Source of the DNA: Vicugna vicugna
Lineage: Eukaryota
DNA length: 64,000 bases
Assembly: GCA_013265495.1 (NCBI GenBank)
Contig: MU057989.1
Location: 124,001-188,000, forward strand
Direction: 5' to 3'
Under the pieces are notes generated by a model. It searched no databases, was not told the DNA's origin, and saw only the letters and a list, made by a program, of their open reading frames with translations. Positions within the stretch are counted from its first letter, which is position 1, and each line of letters begins with the position of its first letter. The translations under genes were made by a program, and so were the position numbers. Shown here in pieces: positions 53,049 to 64,000 of the stretch.

Positions 53049-56000
53049 ATGGGCACCTGGGCCTTCCCCACAGCCCTTTTCCTGCTCTGCCTGACTTCTG
53101 AAAGCCTGCAAGGCGGTGAGGGCGGGCGACAGGGCTGCTGGCGGGTCTGGGCAGCTGAGGTTGGGGCTGGGGTTTAGGCAGAGCATTGGGCCAGGTGCTG
53201 GGGCTCCAGAGGGAGTGGAGGGTTAGTGAAGTACGGCTGGGCAGGGTCTTGGGAGACAGAGATAGATGCCTGGGGCCTGCCACCTCTCTGTCTCTGGGGT
53301 CCCTGCCCTAAGTCAGCACCCGCCTTGCTCTCTAGGGCTACCTCCATTGTCTCCTAGACTAGGGAAAGGTAAGTGACCATCCCAGCTCCAGGGTCCAAGA
53401 AGACAGCCTGGTCTCTCCCTCCCAGGGCTCTGGGAGCTCTCTGGAGGAGAACTCCAGATGTTCCCTGCTCTGGGATCTGAATGTGGGGCCCAGGAGAACA
53501 TAGGTCCCACCCTGTTCTCCTGACAGGCAGCCTTGTTCGTGGTCAGCTCAAGTGTGAGGAGCACAGACACCACAAACCCTTGGAAAAGAGCTGAGATGGG
53601 GCAGAACCTCAGCTCCTGGTGTCAGAACATCAGTGCCCCAGTGGAAGGGGCCTGGAGCTGGGTCTTGAAGGAGGGCAGGTTGTGACAGGACAGGGGGAGG
53701 ACATCGCTGGCAGTGAGATAGGACAAAGTCCTGGAGGTGGGACAGGAAGAGAGGAGATGAGGCAAGGTGGAACAGGGGCCAGGGTGGGGTGTCCTCAAGA
53801 ATCTTCCCTTCAGGGACATGGGTGACCCTGCAGGTGGGACAGGGGTTCCCTCCTGAGACCTGACACATGTAAGCTGCAGGAGAGCAAGACTGGGGGGGGT
53901 GGTGCTGAGGGATGAGAAGGGCCTTTGAACCCCACCCTTCCTGCAAATCCCATCCTGCTCAGAATGGGCAGGAGACAGGTGCACCCAGCCCTGGAGGAGG
54001 TGGGGGATCTGCCCCCTAGAGTGTGGCCCAGATGCCTCCCTTCATGCCAGGGACCCTTCAGTTTCTGCTACCCCAACCACCGGTCTGCTCACCCTGTGAT
54101 GTGACCACCAGGGAACCCGAGGCCCAGAGAGAGGGGTGCATTCTCAATCTGCAAGGGGCATCTGGGTTCAGCCCTCTTTGCTGCCTCATAAGTCACTCCC
54201 TCTTCCCAACCCCACAGGCTTAGGAGGCCCCAATGGCTACCGATCAGGTAAAGCTGGCTGAGGGGTGGGTGGGCAGGGGAGAGGGACAGCTCTGTGTCCT
54301 CTGGAGGGGACTGAGCACCCCAGCTCCTGGCCCGTCCTGCCCCCCAAGCTCAACTTCCCCTTTCCCCCACAGGCTATGGCCCTTCCAGTGGTCTAGGAGC
54401 AGGTAAGGCAGGGCCAAAGGGGACTTGGGTCTGGGGGAAGCAGCCATCTCCAAAATACATGGGGGCAGCACAGAGGCCCCCAGGCAGAGAAGCCCACCTG
54501 CCACCCTTCCTGCAGGCCTCCTCCCCTCCCTTCTGCACATCCCCCCTCTCCGCCCCCAGGAGTCTCTGGAGACCATCCTGGTGTCATCTCACTTGTGTAC
54601 CCCGCCCACCCTGGGGGTACAACTTTTTCCTGTCCCTGTCTGTTCCCTGCATTGCCCACTGAACCCAACTCCAGGTCGGGCACTGGCTCACTGCCAGGCC
54701 CTGCGTCAGCTAGGCATGGAAAGAAGGGAGGGAGTGGGCTCCCAGGGGCTCCTCCTGAGCCCTCCACCCTCCTTGGAAAGGAGGGACTGAAGCTAATTTC
54801 TCACGGACCCTCTGCTCAGAATGGCTATGAAGTGGAGAGGATCCCGGTTCTCTCACCCACTCACTGGATCTCCTCCAGGCTTCTGAGAGGGTGTTAAACC
54901 TCAGAAGCCAGGTGGGCCCTGCCTGGGCCCCAAGATCTCTCTGTCTCCGCATCTTTCTCTCACATTCCTCACCTCTCCCTTCCCCCAGGATTCCAGAATG
55001 GGCGCGGGCTGGGAGCCCAACCAGGTGAGTCTTGGGGGCTGGGCATTGCCTTTCTGCCTCCCTCCCAGGCCTCAGAAGGGAAGGGCAGGTTTGGTGGATG
55101 ATTCCAGGAGGTCGGGGGACAGGTAGACAGCCTTCAGGTTTGCTGTTTCTTGTGGGGTCCAAGGGTCCTGCACCCCACCCCAAACTTATCCAGTTCATGG
55201 CTTTCTCTCCTCCCAGGCCCTCCAGCTCAGAATGGCTATGAGACAGGTAGAAGTGGGGCCAGGGCTGAGGGGAGCAGAGATGGGGCCAGGATTCTAGGGG
55301 CATCCCTGAAACTTGGTCTCCTGAGACCCTCCCTTGATCCCCATCTCCTTCTTAGGCATTGGAGGGGGCCTGAAACCCCAGAAGCCAGGTGAGCCCTCAC
55401 CCTGCCTGTCTCTCCCCTTCTCTGTGCCCCTCCCCTCCCCTCATTTCTCCTTTACTCCTCCCTGACCCCCTCCTGCCCTGTCTCCTCAGGGTTTAGGAAC
55501 CGGAATGGGCTAGGAGTAGGGGCCTTCCCAGGTGCTGCTGCCCAGCCAGGTGAGGTGGGGGAAAAGGGGTGAATATGGATATTGGGGGGTGGAGGGGATA
55601 CAGCTGGTCAGCGTTCCGAGATGCTTCTCCCAGGCTCCCCCAGGGCAGAACTGGAGACTCACTGGAGGCAGAGGGAAGGACCATAAGGGTTCCTGTTGAC
55701 TGATTTGGGGAGCAGAGAAAAAGGGCCCCTCAGCTTCACCCTCACCTCAGATAGGACCCCAAATGCCCCCCACCTTACCCCTCAGCTCAGCACAGCTATG
55801 GAGCCCCAGGAAGAGGCTGGATCCCTGGGGGTCCCCTCAACTACTACATCTCTCTCCCCAGGCTTTGGAGAGGGGATGAAACCCCAGAAGCCAGGTGAGA
55901 CCTGCTCCTTGACTGCCCTCCCCTCTGTCCACCTTGCTATCTATCTGCCTTTTGAAGCCCCAGCCCCACTCCACTACCCACCCATCCTTCCCTGGCTCTG

Positions 56001-59000
56001 TCTCCCCAGGATATGGAAATGGGCTGGGAACTGCTGTCTTCCCAGGGCTGGGAGCCCAGCCAGGTGAGGGCCCCTGGGGCACTACACTGGGGTCCAGGGA
56101 GGGGGAGACAGTGAACAGAGCCAGAATCAGAGAACCAGTAGAGGAGGGAGTGGTGTTCTGGGGGAAGGGCAGGGGCTCAGCCAGCCTCCCCTTGGTCTCT
56201 TCCCAGGCCTGGGAGGGGGAATGAAACCTCTGAAGCCAGGTGAGCCCTGCCCTGCCCCCATCTTGGCACTTTGTCAACTCATTTCTACCCCAGTCATTTC
56301 TGTGTGCCCCAGCATGCCCACCCCCTGGCCAACAGCCCCACCTCTCTGTCCCCAGGATTTGGGACCAGAAATGGTTTTGGTGCTGGTGCTTTTCCAGGGA
56401 CAGGAGGGCTGCCAGGTGAGGCTGGATAGGGTAGAGACTGCAGGGAGGGGGCAGGCAAGGGAGGTTCAGGGTCCAAGGTCCACAGCTGGTTGGGGTCAGT
56501 GTCAACCTCTCTGTCTCTCCCCAGGGCTGGGAGAAGTCATGAAAAAACCTCAGAAGCCAGGTGTAGGGAGAGACTGCCCTCTCACTCTGCCCCCAGCCGT
56601 GCCACTGCCCCCAGCCCTGCCACTGCTACCCTCCCAGGGACTCCTTTTATTTAGCTGCTGCTGTCATTTCTCTGGCTTAAGCCCTTGTCTTGGGGAGCAT
56701 TGTCCACACTTCCAGGCATGCTCCCTGAGAAGAATTGACAGGGGGGCACAAAGGTCATGGGGTGGGGACATCACAGGAGGTATGAGCCTACCCAGTGCAG
56801 CCCAGGCCCCACACTGGCCCAGCTCCAGCCTCCACCCTCCCTCTCTCTGAAGGCCCAGTGGATCAGATTGGCCAGGGACCAGGTAGGGGGAGAGGGGGTG
56901 GAGCTGGGGGCACATGTTTGGGTTTGGGGGTTCAGAGGAGCTCTAGGCTCATTTACCTGGTCTCTGTCTTTTTCTCAGGAATTGGAAAGAGCGTCAAACC
57001 TCAAAAACCAGGTGAGCCCTACCCTGTCCCTATGTCCTTTTCCTTCATCGTCCTCCCACCCCACCCCATCTCTCCTTGCTCCCTCCTGCTCTGTCTCCCC
57101 AGGATTCAGCAGTGGGAATGGGATGGGAGCTGCCATCTTCCCAGGAGCTGGAGCCCAGCCAGGTGAGTGCATGTGAGCCAAGCTGAGGTTCTAGGAAGGA
57201 AGGAGTGGGAGGAGCTGGAGAGGTCAGGGATACGGAGGACAGAAAATGGATTTCTTGGGGGAGAATAGGGGCTGGGAAGTGTTCAAATGCCCGTGGCTCA
57301 GTTCCCAGGGGTCTTTCCCCAGGCTTGGGAGGGGGCATGAAACCTCAGAAACCAGGTGAGGCAGAGATCCTGCCCTCCAGTCCCCACCATCTTGATTCTA
57401 TCCCTGCCCATCCTTGTCCTTGTCCCCACCCCAAGTCCTCCCCAAATCCACTGCTCACATACTCCTTTTTTTCTCCAGGAGAGGGCATTGGCAACGGCCT
57501 GGGGGCCCAGCCAGGTGAGGGTGGCCTGCTCGGAGGGAGGGAGATGTCACTGCCAGCCCAGCTCTGGGCTCCGGACAGAGGGGCTCTTAGGGGCTCACTT
57601 ATTCCACCAACTGCCCCGAGGGCCTGCCCTGAGCCAGGCCATGGCTGGCACTGCAGGAACCATGCTGGTCAATCCTGACGGGGCTACAGGCCCACCGGGC
57701 CCAGTCTGCAAGCCAAGAACCGTGGGTGCCGCTGTGGGCTGCGGTCAGGGCTTGGGGAGAGTCCACCAGAACATAGAGCCCAAGGCTGGAGGCCTGAGGG
57801 GCTTTAACCTGGCAGTGGGAGACAACTCTGGGGCATTAAGCAGAGCATAAAAGACCTTGTTTATAGGAGAAAATCCTTCGTTCCCAGAGTAGATGGGGAC
57901 GGGAAGACTTGAGGAGGCTGATGGGCATTTCTGGGGCTGGGCTTGTCGGTAGCCAGAGTGGGGGCAGGGAGAAGTGAGCAGAAGTTAAGGCCACAGGAAG
58001 TCTCATGGGCCAGAGGGGTATAGAAGGCTGGACCTGGGGACTCTGTCTCTCTGCTGCCTCAATCTCCCCGGCCCTTTTCCTGTCGCAGTTCCCCCACAGT
58101 GACCTCCCTACTCCACCTGTGAATCTAGCCAGCCTGAGGGGAGGGATGTGTGAGGGGAGGGTGGGGTCCTGGCAGGTGGGAGGCTGAGGGAGGCCAGGGA
58201 ATCACTCCCATTTCAGTGCCATCCAAATTTTCTGTGTCAACCCCCAAATAGGTCTCGCAGCCCAAAATGGCTTTGGACCAGGTAGAGAGGGGATGGGGGC
58301 TGAGATTTGGTGGGGAGGCCCAGAGATGGGGGCTTCTGGGTTCCTCACCTGCTCTCCTCTCCTCAGGCTTTGGAGTGGGAGGAAAACCCGAGAAGCCAGG
58401 TAGGCCAAGCTCTGCTGTTTTTGTGTCTATAGCCATTAACCCTTTATCTGTGCTCCTCTCAAGTCCCAGGTGTCTCCTCAGGCCCTCTTGCTCTGTCTCT
58501 CCAGGGTTCAGGACAGAGAATGGAGCCCAGCCAGGTAAGCTCTAGGAATTTGGGGCTCACTGAGGGGCTAGTGGATGTGAGGGCAGACCCCAATTCTGAG
58601 GGGAGAGGAGGGTCCAGGGGGACTAACTGGACAGCCTCCTTCTCATCTCCAGGACTCGGAGGACCGAAACCCCAGAAGCCAGGTGAGACCTGCCCTCCCA
58701 TCTGGTGTCACATAACAAATATTCATTCAGCAAACACCCACAGGCCAGCCAGGTGCTGGAGGCAGGCCCTTCCGGAACCTGGGCACGCAGGATGAGGCAT
58801 ACAGGAAAGGAGCATGCACGTTACACAGGGCACATTCTGGGGAAGAGGATGCAGAGGTGGGGGACTGCTGGCTGTGGCCCACTGAAAACTCTTGAGCTGG
58901 GGCAGCCAAGAGGGACCAGAAAGGGTATAGCCTCTGGGAATGGCTGGAGGCCAAGGTGGCAGGGGCTCGTGCTGAGAGCAGAGTGTGTGGTTGGTGAAGG

Positions 59001-63956: not shown

Positions 63957-64000
63957 GTGAGGAGGCCTTTTGCCTGAGTTTTCCTTCCCTTCCCCTCCAG

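What the first reader, a model, noticed from the sequence alone, without database searches (positions are those of the whole stretch)
53049..64000. Hidden micro-exon array encoding a secreted, modular Gly-rich protein (GREP1/LINC00514 locus)
Seen: after a signal-peptide exon, about 41 exons in 11 kb, 39 of them only 30-60 nt. Every one is a multiple of 3 and phase 1-1, almost always splitting a Gly codon, and most end CCAG|GT. No ORF in the six-frame track captures the protein. Exons fall into three classes: A ([11 protein letters not shown], 30 nt), B (GFGGGxKPQKPG, mostly 33 nt) and C ([13 protein letters not shown] or ...GAFPG..QPG, 30-60 nt). Established: tropoelastin uses the same one-module-per-symmetric-phase-1-exon design, and as recalled the human locus was long labelled a lincRNA. 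Inference: a barely characterised extracellular structural protein whose length and composition can be tuned combinatorially by exon skipping.
Basis: partly seen in the sequence, partly recalled or inferred. Interest (0 to 1): 0.88.

Follow-up and report, generated by a model that had tools for sequence, protein, structure and literature searches.

The report
GREP1 gene: a micro-exon array

Summary
After a start/signal-peptide exon (53049-53115) there are 41 internal exons up to the window end. All are multiples of 3 and phase 1-1, and 39 are 30-60 nt. A Gly codon is split at 37 of 41 junctions, and 31 of 41 exons end CCAG|GT.

A frame-blind splice-site rule gives 38 of 51 candidate micro-exons with length divisible by 3 here. 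Elsewhere in the window it gives 15 of 50 and 20 of 57.

The locus is the GREP1 orthologue (ex-LINC00514) of a camelid:
- The 132-nt exon is 100% identical to a Camelus bactrianus GREP1 entry.
- A second camel model joins 19 of my exons at exactly my borders.
- The gene lies between a PKMYT1-like kinase and a claudin pair.

Eight more phase-1 exons lie just beyond the window, giving 50 coding exons and 717 codons in all.

The modules arose by tandem duplication of A-B-C exon units, introns included. Paralogous exons differ mainly at third codon positions. Annotated isoforms, labelled up to X40 in one species, differ only by whole modules.

GREP1 is published as a secreted, glycosylated, disordered protein (Prensner et al.). 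No paper in the held library links it to micro-exons or elastin. Homology to elastin was tested and not shown.

Verdict: real and correctly interpreted, but already known.

The parts
53005..53011 (+). TATA-like TTTAAAG, 44 nt upstream of the ATG
   Evidence: Read by eye. Not tested.
53049..53115 (+). Exon 1: ATG, 22-residue signal peptide and the first base of a split Gly codon (67 nt)
   Evidence: It is 20 of 22 identical to the human isoform 3 precursor N-terminus and 21 of 22 to felid and bat models.
53336..53368 (+). Exon 2, unique N-terminal module, 33 nt, phase 1-1
   Evidence: Aligned in bat, pig and felid models.
53953..54010 (+). A-like module relic, not a usable exon
   Evidence: A-module HMM, E 0.014.
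54218..54247 (+). Exon 3, A-like, 30 nt, phase 1-1
   Evidence: A-HMM E 3.5e-6, not a training sequence. Present in pig and snow-leopard models, absent from the bat model.
54373..54402 (+). Exon 4, 30 nt, phase 1-1
54805..54839 (+). A-like module relic without an acceptor
   Evidence: A-HMM E 0.0028. Read.
54879..54911 (+). B-type 33-nt exon with intact splice sites but an in-frame TGA (poison or pseudo-exon)
   Evidence: B-HMM E 6.9e-14. Picked by the blind splice rule. Translation. The pig model has a coding B module at this place.
54989..55024 (+). Exon 5, class C, 36 nt
55217..55246 (+). Exon 6, class A, 30 nt
55356..55388 (+). Exon 7, class B, 33 nt
55490..55549 (+). Exon 8, class C (long form), 60 nt
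55778..55822 (+). A-like relic with lost donor
   Evidence: A-HMM E 0.16, weak. Read.
55862..55894 (+). Exon 9, class B, 33 nt
56010..56063 (+). Exon 10, class C, 54 nt
56207..56239 (+). Exon 11, class B, 33 nt
56356..56415 (+). Exon 12, class C, 60 nt
56525..56560 (+). Exon 13, class B, 36 nt
56853..56882 (+). Exon 14, class A, 30 nt. Its AAG acceptor is doubtful; an alternative CAG acceptor at 56829 gives 54 nt, also in frame.
56979..57011 (+). Exon 15, class B, 33 nt
57103..57162 (+). Exon 16, class C, 60 nt
57323..57355 (+). Exon 17, class B, 33 nt
57479..57514 (+). Exon 18, class C, 36 nt
58252..58281 (+). Exon 19, class A, 30 nt
   Evidence: corrected by one base..
58367..58399 (+). Exon 20, class B, 33 nt
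   Evidence: Used in the C. bactrianus model P0092.
58505..58534 (+). Exon 21, class C (short), 30 nt
   Evidence: In P0092.
58653..58682 (+). Exon 22, class B, 30 nt
   Evidence: In P0092.
59234..59263 (+). Exon 23, class A, 30 nt
   Evidence: In P0092.
59348..59380 (+). Exon 24, class B, 33 nt. It ends CCAA, so the next junction codon is Arg.
   Evidence: In P0092.
59473..59508 (+). Exon 25, class C, 36 nt
   Evidence: In P0092.
59702..59731 (+). Exon 26, class A, 30 nt
   Evidence: In P0092.
59814..59846 (+). Exon 27, class B, 33 nt
   Evidence: In P0092.
59928..60044 (+). Exon 28, 117 nt: a C-type module with lost donor read through into a B-type module. The B part alone (60018-60044, 27 nt) is an alternative. 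Doubtful.
   Evidence: Skipped in P0092.
60140..60175 (+). Exon 29, class C, 36 nt
   Evidence: In P0092.
60322..60383 (+). B-like relic with lost donor
   Evidence: B-HMM E 9.7e-5. Read.
60609..60638 (+). Exon 30, class A, 30 nt
   Evidence: In P0092.
60819..60863 (+). Exon 31, class C, 45 nt
   Evidence: In P0092.
61082..61111 (+). Exon 32, class A, 30 nt, weak donor GTGCT
   Evidence: Skipped in P0092.
61371..61400 (+). Exon 33, class A variant, 30 nt
   Evidence: In P0092.
61502..61534 (+). Exon 34, class B, 33 nt
   Evidence: In P0092.
62302..62355 (+). Exon 35, class C, 54 nt
   Evidence: In P0092.
62496..62528 (+). Exon 36, class B, 33 nt
   Evidence: In P0092.
62613..62648 (+). Exon 37, class C variant, 36 nt
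   Evidence: In P0092.
62743..62775 (+). Exon 38, class B, 33 nt
   Evidence: In P0092.
62878..62913 (+). Exon 39, class C, 36 nt
   Evidence: Skipped in P0092.
63217..63348 (+). Exon 40, unique Pro-rich non-repeat domain, 132 nt, phase 1-1
   Evidence: 31 hits, 100% identity to C. bactrianus GREP1 entry P0001. In P0001, skipped in P0092.
63586..63630 (+). Exon 41, B-like tail, 45 nt
   Evidence: B-HMM E 1.4e-4. In P0092, skipped in P0001.
63915..63956 (+). Exon 42, A-like, 42 nt. It holds an exact match to a published human GREP1 qPCR primer.
   Evidence: In P0092 and P0001.

Best explanation
Window 53049-64000 (+) holds the first 42 of 50 coding exons of the GREP1 orthologue (glycine-rich extracellular protein 1, formerly LINC00514) of a camelid.

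**Gene design.**
- Exon 1 encodes a signal peptide and ends on the first base of a Gly codon.
- Every later exon is a self-contained peptide module of 10-20 residues. Each begins with the last two bases of a (mostly Gly) codon and ends on the first base of the next.
- All 49 introns are therefore phase 1. Any subset of internal exons can be joined without changing the reading frame.

**Splicing (inferred).** The exons are too short to hold much splicing information. Recognition probably rests on three features: near-consensus CAG|GTGAG donors; pyrimidine-rich acceptors; and short (median 125 nt) GC-rich introns with G-runs just after the donor, that is, intron definition.

**Origin.** The array grew by tandem duplication of genomic A-B-C (or B-C) exon-plus-intron units. 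It loses modules by point mutation without harm to the rest.

**Product.** With all exons included it would be 717 residues. It is a secreted, intrinsically disordered Gly/Pro-rich extracellular protein in which Lys/Gln-bearing KPQKP modules alternate with Gly/aromatic modules.

**Shown here:** exon structure, phase, orthology, duplication history and coding-type divergence.

**Taken from the literature for the human and mouse genes:** secretion, glycosylation, cleavage, binding of matrix proteins and expression in the inner annulus fibrosus.

**Inferred:** that exon choice is used to tune length and composition, and that the protein has a structural role.
For: **Exon structure and controls:**

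**Orthology:**
- 31 hits among 39 candidates, with a 100% match to a C. bactrianus GREP1 entry.
- 124 hits among 1802 candidates to the C-terminal part of a bat GREP1. Of the 120 listed, the 115 that carry an organism name are all placental mammals, by my count.
- camel model P0092 strings 19 of my exons together contiguously with 0-2 mismatches each. P0001 joins exons 40 and 42.
- in global alignments to 8 orthologues, 29 of 63 internal gaps of 8 residues or more have both ends within 1 residue of my exon borders. Random placement gives a mean of 4.6 (maximum 13 in 2000 trials).

**Synteny:**
- Upstream are FLYWCH, WSC+CUB, HlyIII and Pkinase domains.
- A claudin pair lies 11.4 kb beyond the window end on the same contig.

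**Rest of the gene:** 8 more phase-1 exons and a stop codon. The whole CDS is 2154 nt with a single, terminal stop.

**Duplication:**
- 44 self-BLAST HSPs, all on the same strand.
- The longest is 432 nt at 69% identity and spans an A-B-C unit with its introns.
- Module HMMs find nothing better than E 0.37 in the other 53 kb.

**Coding constraint:** among paralogous exons the mean pairwise difference is 0.213 at codon position 1, 0.231 at position 2 and 0.426 at position 3. It is 0.52-0.53 in flanking intron (position 3 versus positions 1+2, p = 2.4e-5).

**Spliced transcripts in other mammals:** four Logan-derived proteins lie on contigs too short to be genomic.

| Protein | Length | Contig |
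|---|---|---|
| P0015 | 402 aa | 1421 nt |
| P0101 | 441 aa | 1588 nt |
| P0007 | 251 aa | 996 nt |
| P0010 | 209 aa | 911 nt |

**Isoforms:** labels run up to X40. Nine seal isoforms are 99-100% identical and differ only by whole modules.

**Splicing features:** 22 of 41 donors are GTGAG. GGG occurs 7.2 times per 100 nt just after donors, against 2.3 before acceptors and 3.3 in the background. Pyrimidine fraction is 0.72 before acceptors.

**Literature:**
- Passages of bioRxiv 10.1101/2020.03.10.981001.
- Passages of PMC13082079.
- Passages of PMC9877250.
Against: - No transcript or peptide from this species was seen here.
- The two camel database models are partial. P0092 lacks the signal peptide and starts at a Met in another frame of exon 16. 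P0001 starts inside the intron before exon 40.
- A B-type exon with good splice sites (54879-54911) carries an in-frame TGA. If included, it would truncate the protein.
- Three exons are individually uncertain: 14 (AAG acceptor), 28 (read-through) and 32 (weak donor).
- The blind splice rule missed 10 of my 39 short exons and proposed 22 pairs that I did not accept.
- 34 of 63 alignment gaps do not sit on exon borders. Repeats make such alignments ambiguous.
- The isoforms are computational gene models. I could not see the reads behind them.
- The codon-position signal dates from after the duplications. It does not prove present-day constraint in camelids.
- A structural function is not shown anywhere I read.
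Confidence: 0.9

Rival explanations
1. The exon array is real. But the many isoforms are splicing noise or annotation artefacts: one or a few fixed isoforms are made, and exon choice is not a regulated way to tune the protein.
For: - All isoform evidence seen is computational gene models.
- Weak sites (exons 14, 28, 32) and module relics show that modules drift in and out passively.
- Species differ in module number. This needs only gain and loss, not regulation.
Against: - Perfect conservation of phase 1 over 49 introns.
- The same design in tropoelastin is linked in the literature to extensive alternative splicing.
- Two camel models differ in their use of exons 39-41.
Confidence: 0.3
2. In this species the gene is decaying: a pseudogene, or only a non-coding transcript. 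The open frame over my chosen exons is a remnant.
For: - In-frame TGA in a B exon with intact splice sites.
- Four other module relics and a fused exon 28.
- The camel model P0092 has no signal peptide and an out-of-frame start.
Against: - 50 exons give one uninterrupted 717-codon frame with a start, a signal peptide, a terminal stop and AATAAA signals downstream.
- Exon 40 is 100% identical to, and 19 other exons within 0-2 residues of, Camelus models.
- Relics are also tolerated in elastin-type genes.
Confidence: 0.06
3. GREP1 is an evolutionary relative (old paralogue) of elastin, not merely an analogue.
For: - Same phase 1-1 design. The same script rule recovers 31 elastin-type candidate exons at the ELN locus of this genome.
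- Both genes lie on a contig with a claudin pair: 11.4 kb away for GREP1 and 192 kb for ELN.
- The ELN locus holds a 33-nt phase 1-1 exon with a KPxKP motif, like the B modules. The B-module HMM with flanks hits it at E 2.8e-4.
- In both proteins the last exon has two cysteines (passage).
Against: - Exon-only HMMs of the A, B and C modules give no hit at the ELN exons. The best is E 0.079, elsewhere in the locus.
- Smith-Waterman score of GREP1 against concatenated ELN exons is only z 2.5-3.3 above residue shuffles. 3 of 200 and 0 of 200 shuffles reach it. This is expected from shared low-complexity style.
- GREP1 has no poly-Ala/Lys domains (0 AAK or KAA motifs), 3.3% Val and no basic tail.
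- Every named GREP1 hit is a placental mammal.
Confidence: 0.07

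Closest known systems
[quoted passage not shown]
   Same: - The signal peptide is 20 of 22 identical.
- It has the same module types, the same unique Pro-rich domain and a C-terminal end with two cysteines.
- Global alignment to the human isoform 3 precursor shows 248 of 367 aligned residues identical.
- A published human qPCR primer matches 63921-63941 at 21 of 21 bases.
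- It lies next to a PKMYT1-like kinase. The human gene order is recalled, not checked.
   Different: - The species differs and so does the number of modules: the human isoform has 519 aa, against 717 codons here with every exon included.
- Two published human sgRNA sites match only with 2-3 mismatches.
- This copy has an in-frame TGA in one B exon.
Tropoelastin (ELN)
   Same: - It is a secreted, disordered, low-complexity matrix protein.
- Exon 1 is essentially the signal peptide.
- All introns are phase 1:1 and each exon is one domain.
- A region is built by replication of exon pairs, with introns as short as 60-100 nt.
- It undergoes cassette-like alternative splicing.
- Two cysteines lie in the last domain (passages). 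The ELN locus of this genome is shown.
   Different: - GREP1 has no KA-type (poly-Ala Lys) domains, little Val and no tetrabasic end.
- Its exons are shorter and more uniform.
- Sequence homology was not shown.
- Cross-linking and elasticity of GREP1 are untested.
Schistosoma micro-exon genes (MEGs)
   Same: - They encode secreted proteins with an N-terminal signal peptide.
- Most of the coding sequence lies in very short exons whose lengths are multiples of 3.
[quoted passage not shown]
- Automatic annotation struggled with them (passages).
   Different: - The lineage and sequences are unrelated.
- MEG exons are shorter (mostly 6-36 nt) and separated by long introns.
- MEGs form a multigene family of a parasite, not one matrix gene with 40+ tandem modules.
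Collagens
   Same: They are Gly/Pro-rich extracellular proteins. Automatic names such as 'collagen alpha-1(III) chain-like' were given to GREP1 models.
   Different: GREP1 has no Gly-X-Y periodicity. The longest run is 3 triplets.

Membership tests
GREP1 orthologue group | Unique non-repeat Pro-rich domain (exon 40) shared by GREP1 proteins | tested here: met
   31 hits with E <= 0.01 among 39 candidates. 100% identity to a C. bactrianus GREP1 entry and 77-88% to other mammals.
GREP1 orthologue group | N-terminal signal peptide of GREP1 type | tested here: met
   20 of 22 identical to the human isoform 3 precursor and 21 of 22 to felid and bat models. No signal-peptide predictor was available.
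GREP1 orthologue group | Position between a PKMYT1-like kinase gene and a claudin pair | tested here: met
   - Pkinase exon at 39326-39847 (-).
- Claudin matches at C1192:199429 (+) and 201520 (-); the window ends at C1192:188000.
- That this is the human order is recalled.
GREP1 orthologue group | C-terminal part ending in a short two-cysteine motif | tested here: met
   L009 exons 61-1850 reproduce the C-terminus of camel models P0092 and P0001.
GREP1 orthologue group | Protein is secreted, glycosylated and cleaved | not testable with these tools
   Published for the human protein only (passage).
Tropoelastin | All introns phase 1:1, one domain per exon | tested here: met
   49 of 49 introns are phase 1. 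The feature is defined in the passage.
Tropoelastin | KA-type cross-linking domains (Lys in poly-Ala) | tested here: not met
   0 AAK or KAA motifs in the 581 residues encoded in the window. They are abundant at the ELN locus of the same genome.
Tropoelastin | C-terminal domain ending in a tetrabasic motif | tested here: not met
   GREP1 here ends with a two-cysteine motif and no basic tail. The ELN last exon of this genome has the basic tail.
Tropoelastin | Detectable sequence homology to ELN exons | tested here: inconclusive
   - HMM with intron flanks: E 2.8e-4 at the 33-nt KP exon.
- Exon-only HMMs: nothing there.
- Smith-Waterman z 2.5-3.3 over shuffles.
Collagen | Long uninterrupted Gly-X-Y repeats | tested here: not met
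   Longest run is 3 triplets.
Schistosome micro-exon genes | Coding sequence mostly in symmetric micro-exons between a signal-peptide exon and a 3' exon | tested here: met
   31 of 41 internal exons are <= 36 nt (1008 of 1744 coding nt in the window). 39 of 41 are <= 60 nt (1428 of 1744 nt).
Schistosome micro-exon genes | Membership of the Schistosomatidae-specific MEG superfamily | tested here: not met
   This is a mammalian gene, and all named relatives are placental mammals. The MEG family is described as specific to Schistosomatidae (passage).
Any Pfam family | Match to a curated domain model | tested here: not met
   0 families for P0026, P0013 and P0092 at E <= 0.01. The Pfam column is '-' for the GREP1 hits, except two pig PAQR4-named fusion models.

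The most novel reading that the evidence does not exclude
GREP1 may be a second elastin-type matrix protein, confined to placental mammals.
- Its thirteen-plus KPxKP modules would serve as lysine (or Gln-Lys) cross-linking domains, like elastin's KP-type domains.
- The Gly/aromatic A and C modules would be the disordered spacers.
- Cassette splicing of phase-1 micro-exons would set cross-link density and chain length tissue by tissue, for example in the inner annulus fibrosus.
- Module birth and death would retune the protein between species.
- It might even share ancestry with ELN, since both genes lie beside a claudin pair.
Probability: 0.15. Interest if true: 0.65.

Novelty: already known. 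Interest (0 to 1): 0.3.

Why it matters
The gene, its coding status and its secretion are published and annotated, so nothing here is a discovery. Three things still make the locus instructive.
- **Annotation.** It shows why ORF-based and k-mer-based methods miss micro-exon genes. No six-frame ORF holds more than 3 of the 42 exons, and 24 exons are shorter than a 31-mer.
- **The lncRNA literature.** 191 papers in the held library use the name LINC00514. The listed titles mostly treat it as a microRNA-sponging lncRNA, and several are retracted (listing only). Yet the locus encodes a conserved secreted protein.
- **Matrix biology.** No paper in the held library links GREP1 with micro-exons or elastin. 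The elastin-like gene design, the alternating Lys-bearing and Gly/aromatic modules, and the reported expression in the inner annulus fibrosus together give a testable idea about a barely studied protein.

Tried and rejected
- **RNA evidence in this species.** The look-up of sequencing runs listed no RNA holder. Nothing was laid, so no read-level evidence exists either way.
- **The search of earlier findings**: nothing for this place.
- **Tandem Repeats Finder**: only 13 small arrays (period 5-18). The module array is too diverged and too interrupted by introns to be seen this way.
- **Rfam** over the whole window: no RNA family in the locus.
- **Pfam**: no family for three GREP1 proteins.
- **ESM Atlas**: the nearest clusters are Chordata clusters with the same automatic names that NCBI gives GREP1 models (for example 'Elastin-like'), probably GREP1's own. 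The model is very poor (mean pLDDT 0.35). The structural rows all have TM below 0.35 and were ignored.
- **Per-exon ungapped matching to orthologues**: uninformative, because modules of one class match each other. Global alignments replaced it.
- **Greedy exon chaining**: it mislabelled the first B module of P0092 as exon 9. By sequence it is exon 20 (1 mismatch).
- **Elastin homology:** see the third rival explanation. It was rejected as unproven.
- **Collagen reading:** rejected.
- **Structure prediction and complex prediction:** not run, because the protein is predicted to be disordered.

Full report
**1. What is in the sequence**

Reading 52800-64000 and a script search for AG...GT intervals open in phase 1 gave a chain of 42 exons. 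I curated it by hand and checked it by script.

Exon 1 (53049-53115) has the ATG, 22 codons of a typical signal peptide and one extra base. All 41 later exons are multiples of three and phase 1-1.
- Lengths are 30 nt (12 exons), 33 (12), 36 (7), 42 (1), 45 (2), 54 (2), 60 (3), 117 (1) and 132 (1).
- The split codon is Gly at 37 of 41 junctions; the rest are Val 2, Arg 1, Ala 1.
- 31 of 41 exons end CCAG.
- Donors are GTGAG in 22 of 41. Acceptors are CAG 35, TAG 5, AAG 1.
- Introns have a median of 125 nt, and 24 of 41 are 160 nt or shorter.

The spliced product of the window part is 581 residues with 27% Gly and 15% Pro. No stop-to-stop ORF contains more than three of the exons.

- A: 8 exons, all 30 nt.
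- B: 13 exons, 11 of them 33 nt.
- C: 13 exons of 30-60 nt.
- Seven exons are unique or only class-like.

**2. Is it more than chance?**

I had chosen the exons partly by frame, so I applied a frame-blind rule. It requires a pyrimidine-rich acceptor with YAG, a G|GTR donor and a spacing of 20-70 nt.

| Region and strand | Pairs found | Length divisible by 3 |
|---|---|---|
| Locus, + | 51 | 38 |
| Locus, - | 8 | 1 |
| Other 53 kb, + | 50 | 15 |
| Other 53 kb, - | 57 | 20 |

The rule recovered 29 of my 39 short exons, missed 10, and proposed 22 pairs that I did not accept. Most of those are alternative donors or acceptors of the same exons. CCAGGT is about six times denser on the locus + strand (3.86 per kb) than anywhere else (0.55-0.66 per kb).

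**3. What gene is it?**

The 43 whole codons of the 132-nt exon hit 31 proteins among 39 candidates.
- The best hit is a Camelus bactrianus 'Glycine rich extracellular protein 1' entry at 100% identity.
- The others are GREP1 of many mammals. Some carry automatic names such as elastin-like, collagen-like, formin-2-like or glycine-rich cell wall protein-like.

A second search used the C-terminal 151 residues of a bat GREP1.
- It gave 124 hits among 1802 candidates.
- Of the 120 listed, the 115 with an organism name are all placental mammals, by my count. They cover Afrotheria, Xenarthra, Laurasiatheria and Euarchontoglires.
- They include a human 'isoform 3 precursor'.
- The search is limited to proteins of 299-954 residues that share exact words with the query. 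Absence outside placentals is therefore weak evidence.

The camel model P0092 (389 aa) strings together exons 20-27, 29-31, 33-38, 41 and 42 of my list. They are contiguous, with 0-2 mismatches each, and 28, 32, 39 and 40 are skipped. P0001 joins 40 directly to 42. The few residue differences suggest that the window is from a camelid close to, but not identical with, that record.

Global alignments to eight orthologues give 68-88% identity over aligned residues. In them, 29 of 63 internal gaps of 8 residues or more have both ends within one residue of my exon borders. Random placement gives a mean of 4.6 and a maximum of 13 in 2000 trials.

Synteny fits:
- Upstream are FLYWCH-domain exons (2.4-10 kb), WSC and CUB exons (23-25 kb), a HlyIII/PAQR exon (35 kb) and a protein-kinase gene on the minus strand (39.3-41.1 kb).
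- In the window's own assembly the window is C1192:124001-188000, and a claudin pair lies at 199429 (+) and 201520 (-).
- That human GREP1 lies between PKMYT1 and CLDN9/CLDN6 is my recollection.
- A published human GREP1 qPCR primer matches 63921-63941 at 21 of 21 bases.

**4. The rest of the gene**

The next 10 kb (L009) holds eight more exons at L009:61-93, 495-557, 644-673, 761-820, 972-1070, 1392-1436, 1540-1593 and 1825-1850. All are entered in phase 1. The last ends with a short two-cysteine motif and TGA, with AATAAA signals downstream.

The whole gene therefore has 50 coding exons and 49 phase-1 introns. The CDS is 2154 nt (717 residues) if every exon is used, spread over about 12.8 kb.

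**5. How the array arose and decays**

Self-comparison gives 44 off-diagonal HSPs, all on the same strand.
- The longest aligns 59231-59648 with 60606-61003 (432 nt, 69% identity). This is an A-B-C unit with its introns.
- Others align B-intron-C and A-intron-B units.

Profile HMMs of each class with 25-nt flanks find no copy better than E 0.37 in the other 53 kb. Within the locus they find extra, unusable modules:
- A-like relics at 53953-54010, 54805-54839 and 55778-55822.
- A B-like relic with lost donor at 60322-60383.
- A B exon at 54879-54911 with good splice sites but an in-frame TGA. The pig orthologue has a coding module at that position.

Exon 28 is a C module whose donor is lost and which runs on into a B module.

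Among paralogous exons the mean pairwise difference is 0.213 at codon position 1, 0.231 at position 2 and 0.426 at position 3. It is 0.52-0.53 in the flanking 25 nt of intron. This pattern is expected if the peptide, not the RNA, was conserved after the duplications.

**6. Transcripts and isoforms**

I could not obtain reads for this species; see Tried and rejected.

Indirect evidence from other mammals: four protein clusters from Logan assemblies lie on contigs far too short to be genomic.

| Protein | Length | Contig |
|---|---|---|
| P0015 | 402 aa | 1421 nt |
| P0101 | 441 aa | 1588 nt |
| P0007 | 251 aa | 996 nt |
| P0010 | 209 aa | 911 nt |

They must come from spliced RNA, and they run through many modules without interruption.

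Annotated isoform labels reach X40 in Weddell seal, X35 in dog and X31 in cat. Nine seal isoforms from one contig are 99-100% identical where aligned and differ only by blocks that are whole modules. These are computational models, and I did not see their read support.

**7. Mechanism**

Shown: every internal exon is symmetric in phase 1, so any combination keeps the frame. Donors and acceptors are close to consensus. Introns are short and GC-rich (60%). GGG occurs 7.2 times per 100 nt in the first 60 nt after the donor, against 2.3 before the acceptor and 3.3 in the background. The last 40 nt of introns are 72% pyrimidine.

Inferred: these features allow intron-definition splicing of exons that are too short to carry their own enhancers. 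Cassette use of modules then varies the length and composition of the protein.

The window part of the product has 10 KPxKP motifs, no N-x-S/T sequon, and 50 Lys+Arg against 16 Asp+Glu. It is predicted to be disordered; the Atlas model of a bat orthologue has mean pLDDT 0.35.

**8. Comparison with what is known**

- **GREP1.** Prensner et al. (bioRxiv 10.1101/2020.03.10.981001; passages seen) named GREP1. They showed that the human protein is secreted in a manner dependent on its signal sequence, glycosylated and cleaved. They describe it as glycine-rich, conserved and disordered. It co-precipitates fibronectin and EMILIN2, and it affects GDF15 and breast-cancer cell viability. [quoted passage not shown]
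- **Nomenclature and expression.** HGNC lists GREP1 as previously LINC00514 (PMC9877250, passage). Mouse Grep1 (1520401A03Rik) is reported in the inner annulus fibrosus (PMC13082079, passages).
- **Tropoelastin.** The design matches what Keeley describes for tropoelastin (PMC12554196, passages): all splice sites phase 1:1, a signal-peptide first exon, a region made by replication of exon pairs, introns as short as 60-100 nt, cassette-like alternative splicing, and two cysteines in the last domain.
- **Schistosome MEGs.** It also resembles the schistosome micro-exon genes (bioRxiv 10.1101/2023.06.21.545858, passages).
- **Gaps in print.** Searches for GREP1 with 'elastin', 'microexon' or 'micro-exon' found no relevant paper in the held library. 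The single 'elastin' hit concerns a snail protein. Subscription journals and the preprint's supplements were not visible.

**9. Test of elastin homology**

The elastin last exon of this genome was located at C11641:2206303-2206335, 192 kb from another claudin pair. The same phase-1 script recovered 31 elastin-type candidate exons (some share an acceptor), including a 33-nt exon with a KPxKP motif.

The B-module HMM with intron flanks hits that exon at E 2.8e-4. Exon-only HMMs give nothing there. The Smith-Waterman score of GREP1 against concatenated ELN exons is only 2.5-3.3 sd above residue shuffles.

GREP1 lacks poly-Ala/Lys domains, is poor in Val and has no basic tail. It works like elastin at the level of gene design, but membership or common descent is not shown.

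**10. Verdict**

The interpretation as GREP1/LINC00514, a secreted modular Gly-rich protein, is supported. The exon-skipping idea is supported by annotation only.

The gene is already known and annotated, so novelty is low. What seems undescribed in the literature I could search is the explicit account of its 50-exon phase-1 micro-exon architecture, its duplication units and decaying modules, and the elastin-like design.

Noticed in passing
window 54879-54911 (+): A B-type 33-nt exon has a strong acceptor and donor but an in-frame TGA. The pig orthologue has a coding module at this position. If spliced in, it would give a premature stop. It might explain why a camel database model starts downstream in another frame.
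   Followed up: partly
window 57103-57162 and protein P0092: The C. bactrianus GREP1 model P0092 begins with a Met read in a different frame of exon 16 and lacks the signal peptide. This looks like a mis-modelled 5' end rather than a real isoform.
   Followed up: no
L009:1071-1086 (G000:C1192:189071-189086): After the exon ending at L009:1070 there is a second donor 16 nt downstream. In felid proteins the equivalent stretch is coding and adds about six residues. Here its use would break the frame, so this species seems fixed on the upstream donor.
   Followed up: no
window 11363-11434 and 13310-13381 (+): Two Rfam tRNA matches (37.1 and 37.7 bits) lie in an AT-rich stretch (GC about 0.39). They are probably tRNA-derived SINE heads rather than tRNA genes.
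   Followed up: no
window 2478-10006 (+): Five stop-free stretches carry the FLYWCH zinc-finger signature, two of them confirmed by Pfam. This is a FLYWCH1-like gene with repeated domain exons.
   Followed up: partly
window 46434-47675 (-): A 413-codon stop-free frame lies in a GC-rich block (GC 0.62) between the kinase gene and GREP1. It has no obvious domain by eye. It may simply be a CpG-island-type sequence.
   Followed up: no
proteins P0089 and P0098: Two pig UniRef entries are named PAQR4 and carry the HlyIII domain, yet they also match the GREP1 C-terminal part. They look like read-through or fused gene models across neighbouring genes.
   Followed up: no
G000:C11641:2181441-2206335 (L014-L016): This is the elastin locus of the same genome. 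The phase-1 script recovered 31 candidate exons, among them a 33-nt exon at 2183121-2183153 with a KPxKP motif, the same length and phase as GREP1 B modules. 640 N lie in the fetched 48 kb.
   Followed up: partly
literature listing: 191 papers in the held library use the name LINC00514. The listed titles mostly describe a microRNA-sponging lncRNA, and several are retracted. The locus nonetheless encodes a conserved secreted protein.
   Followed up: no
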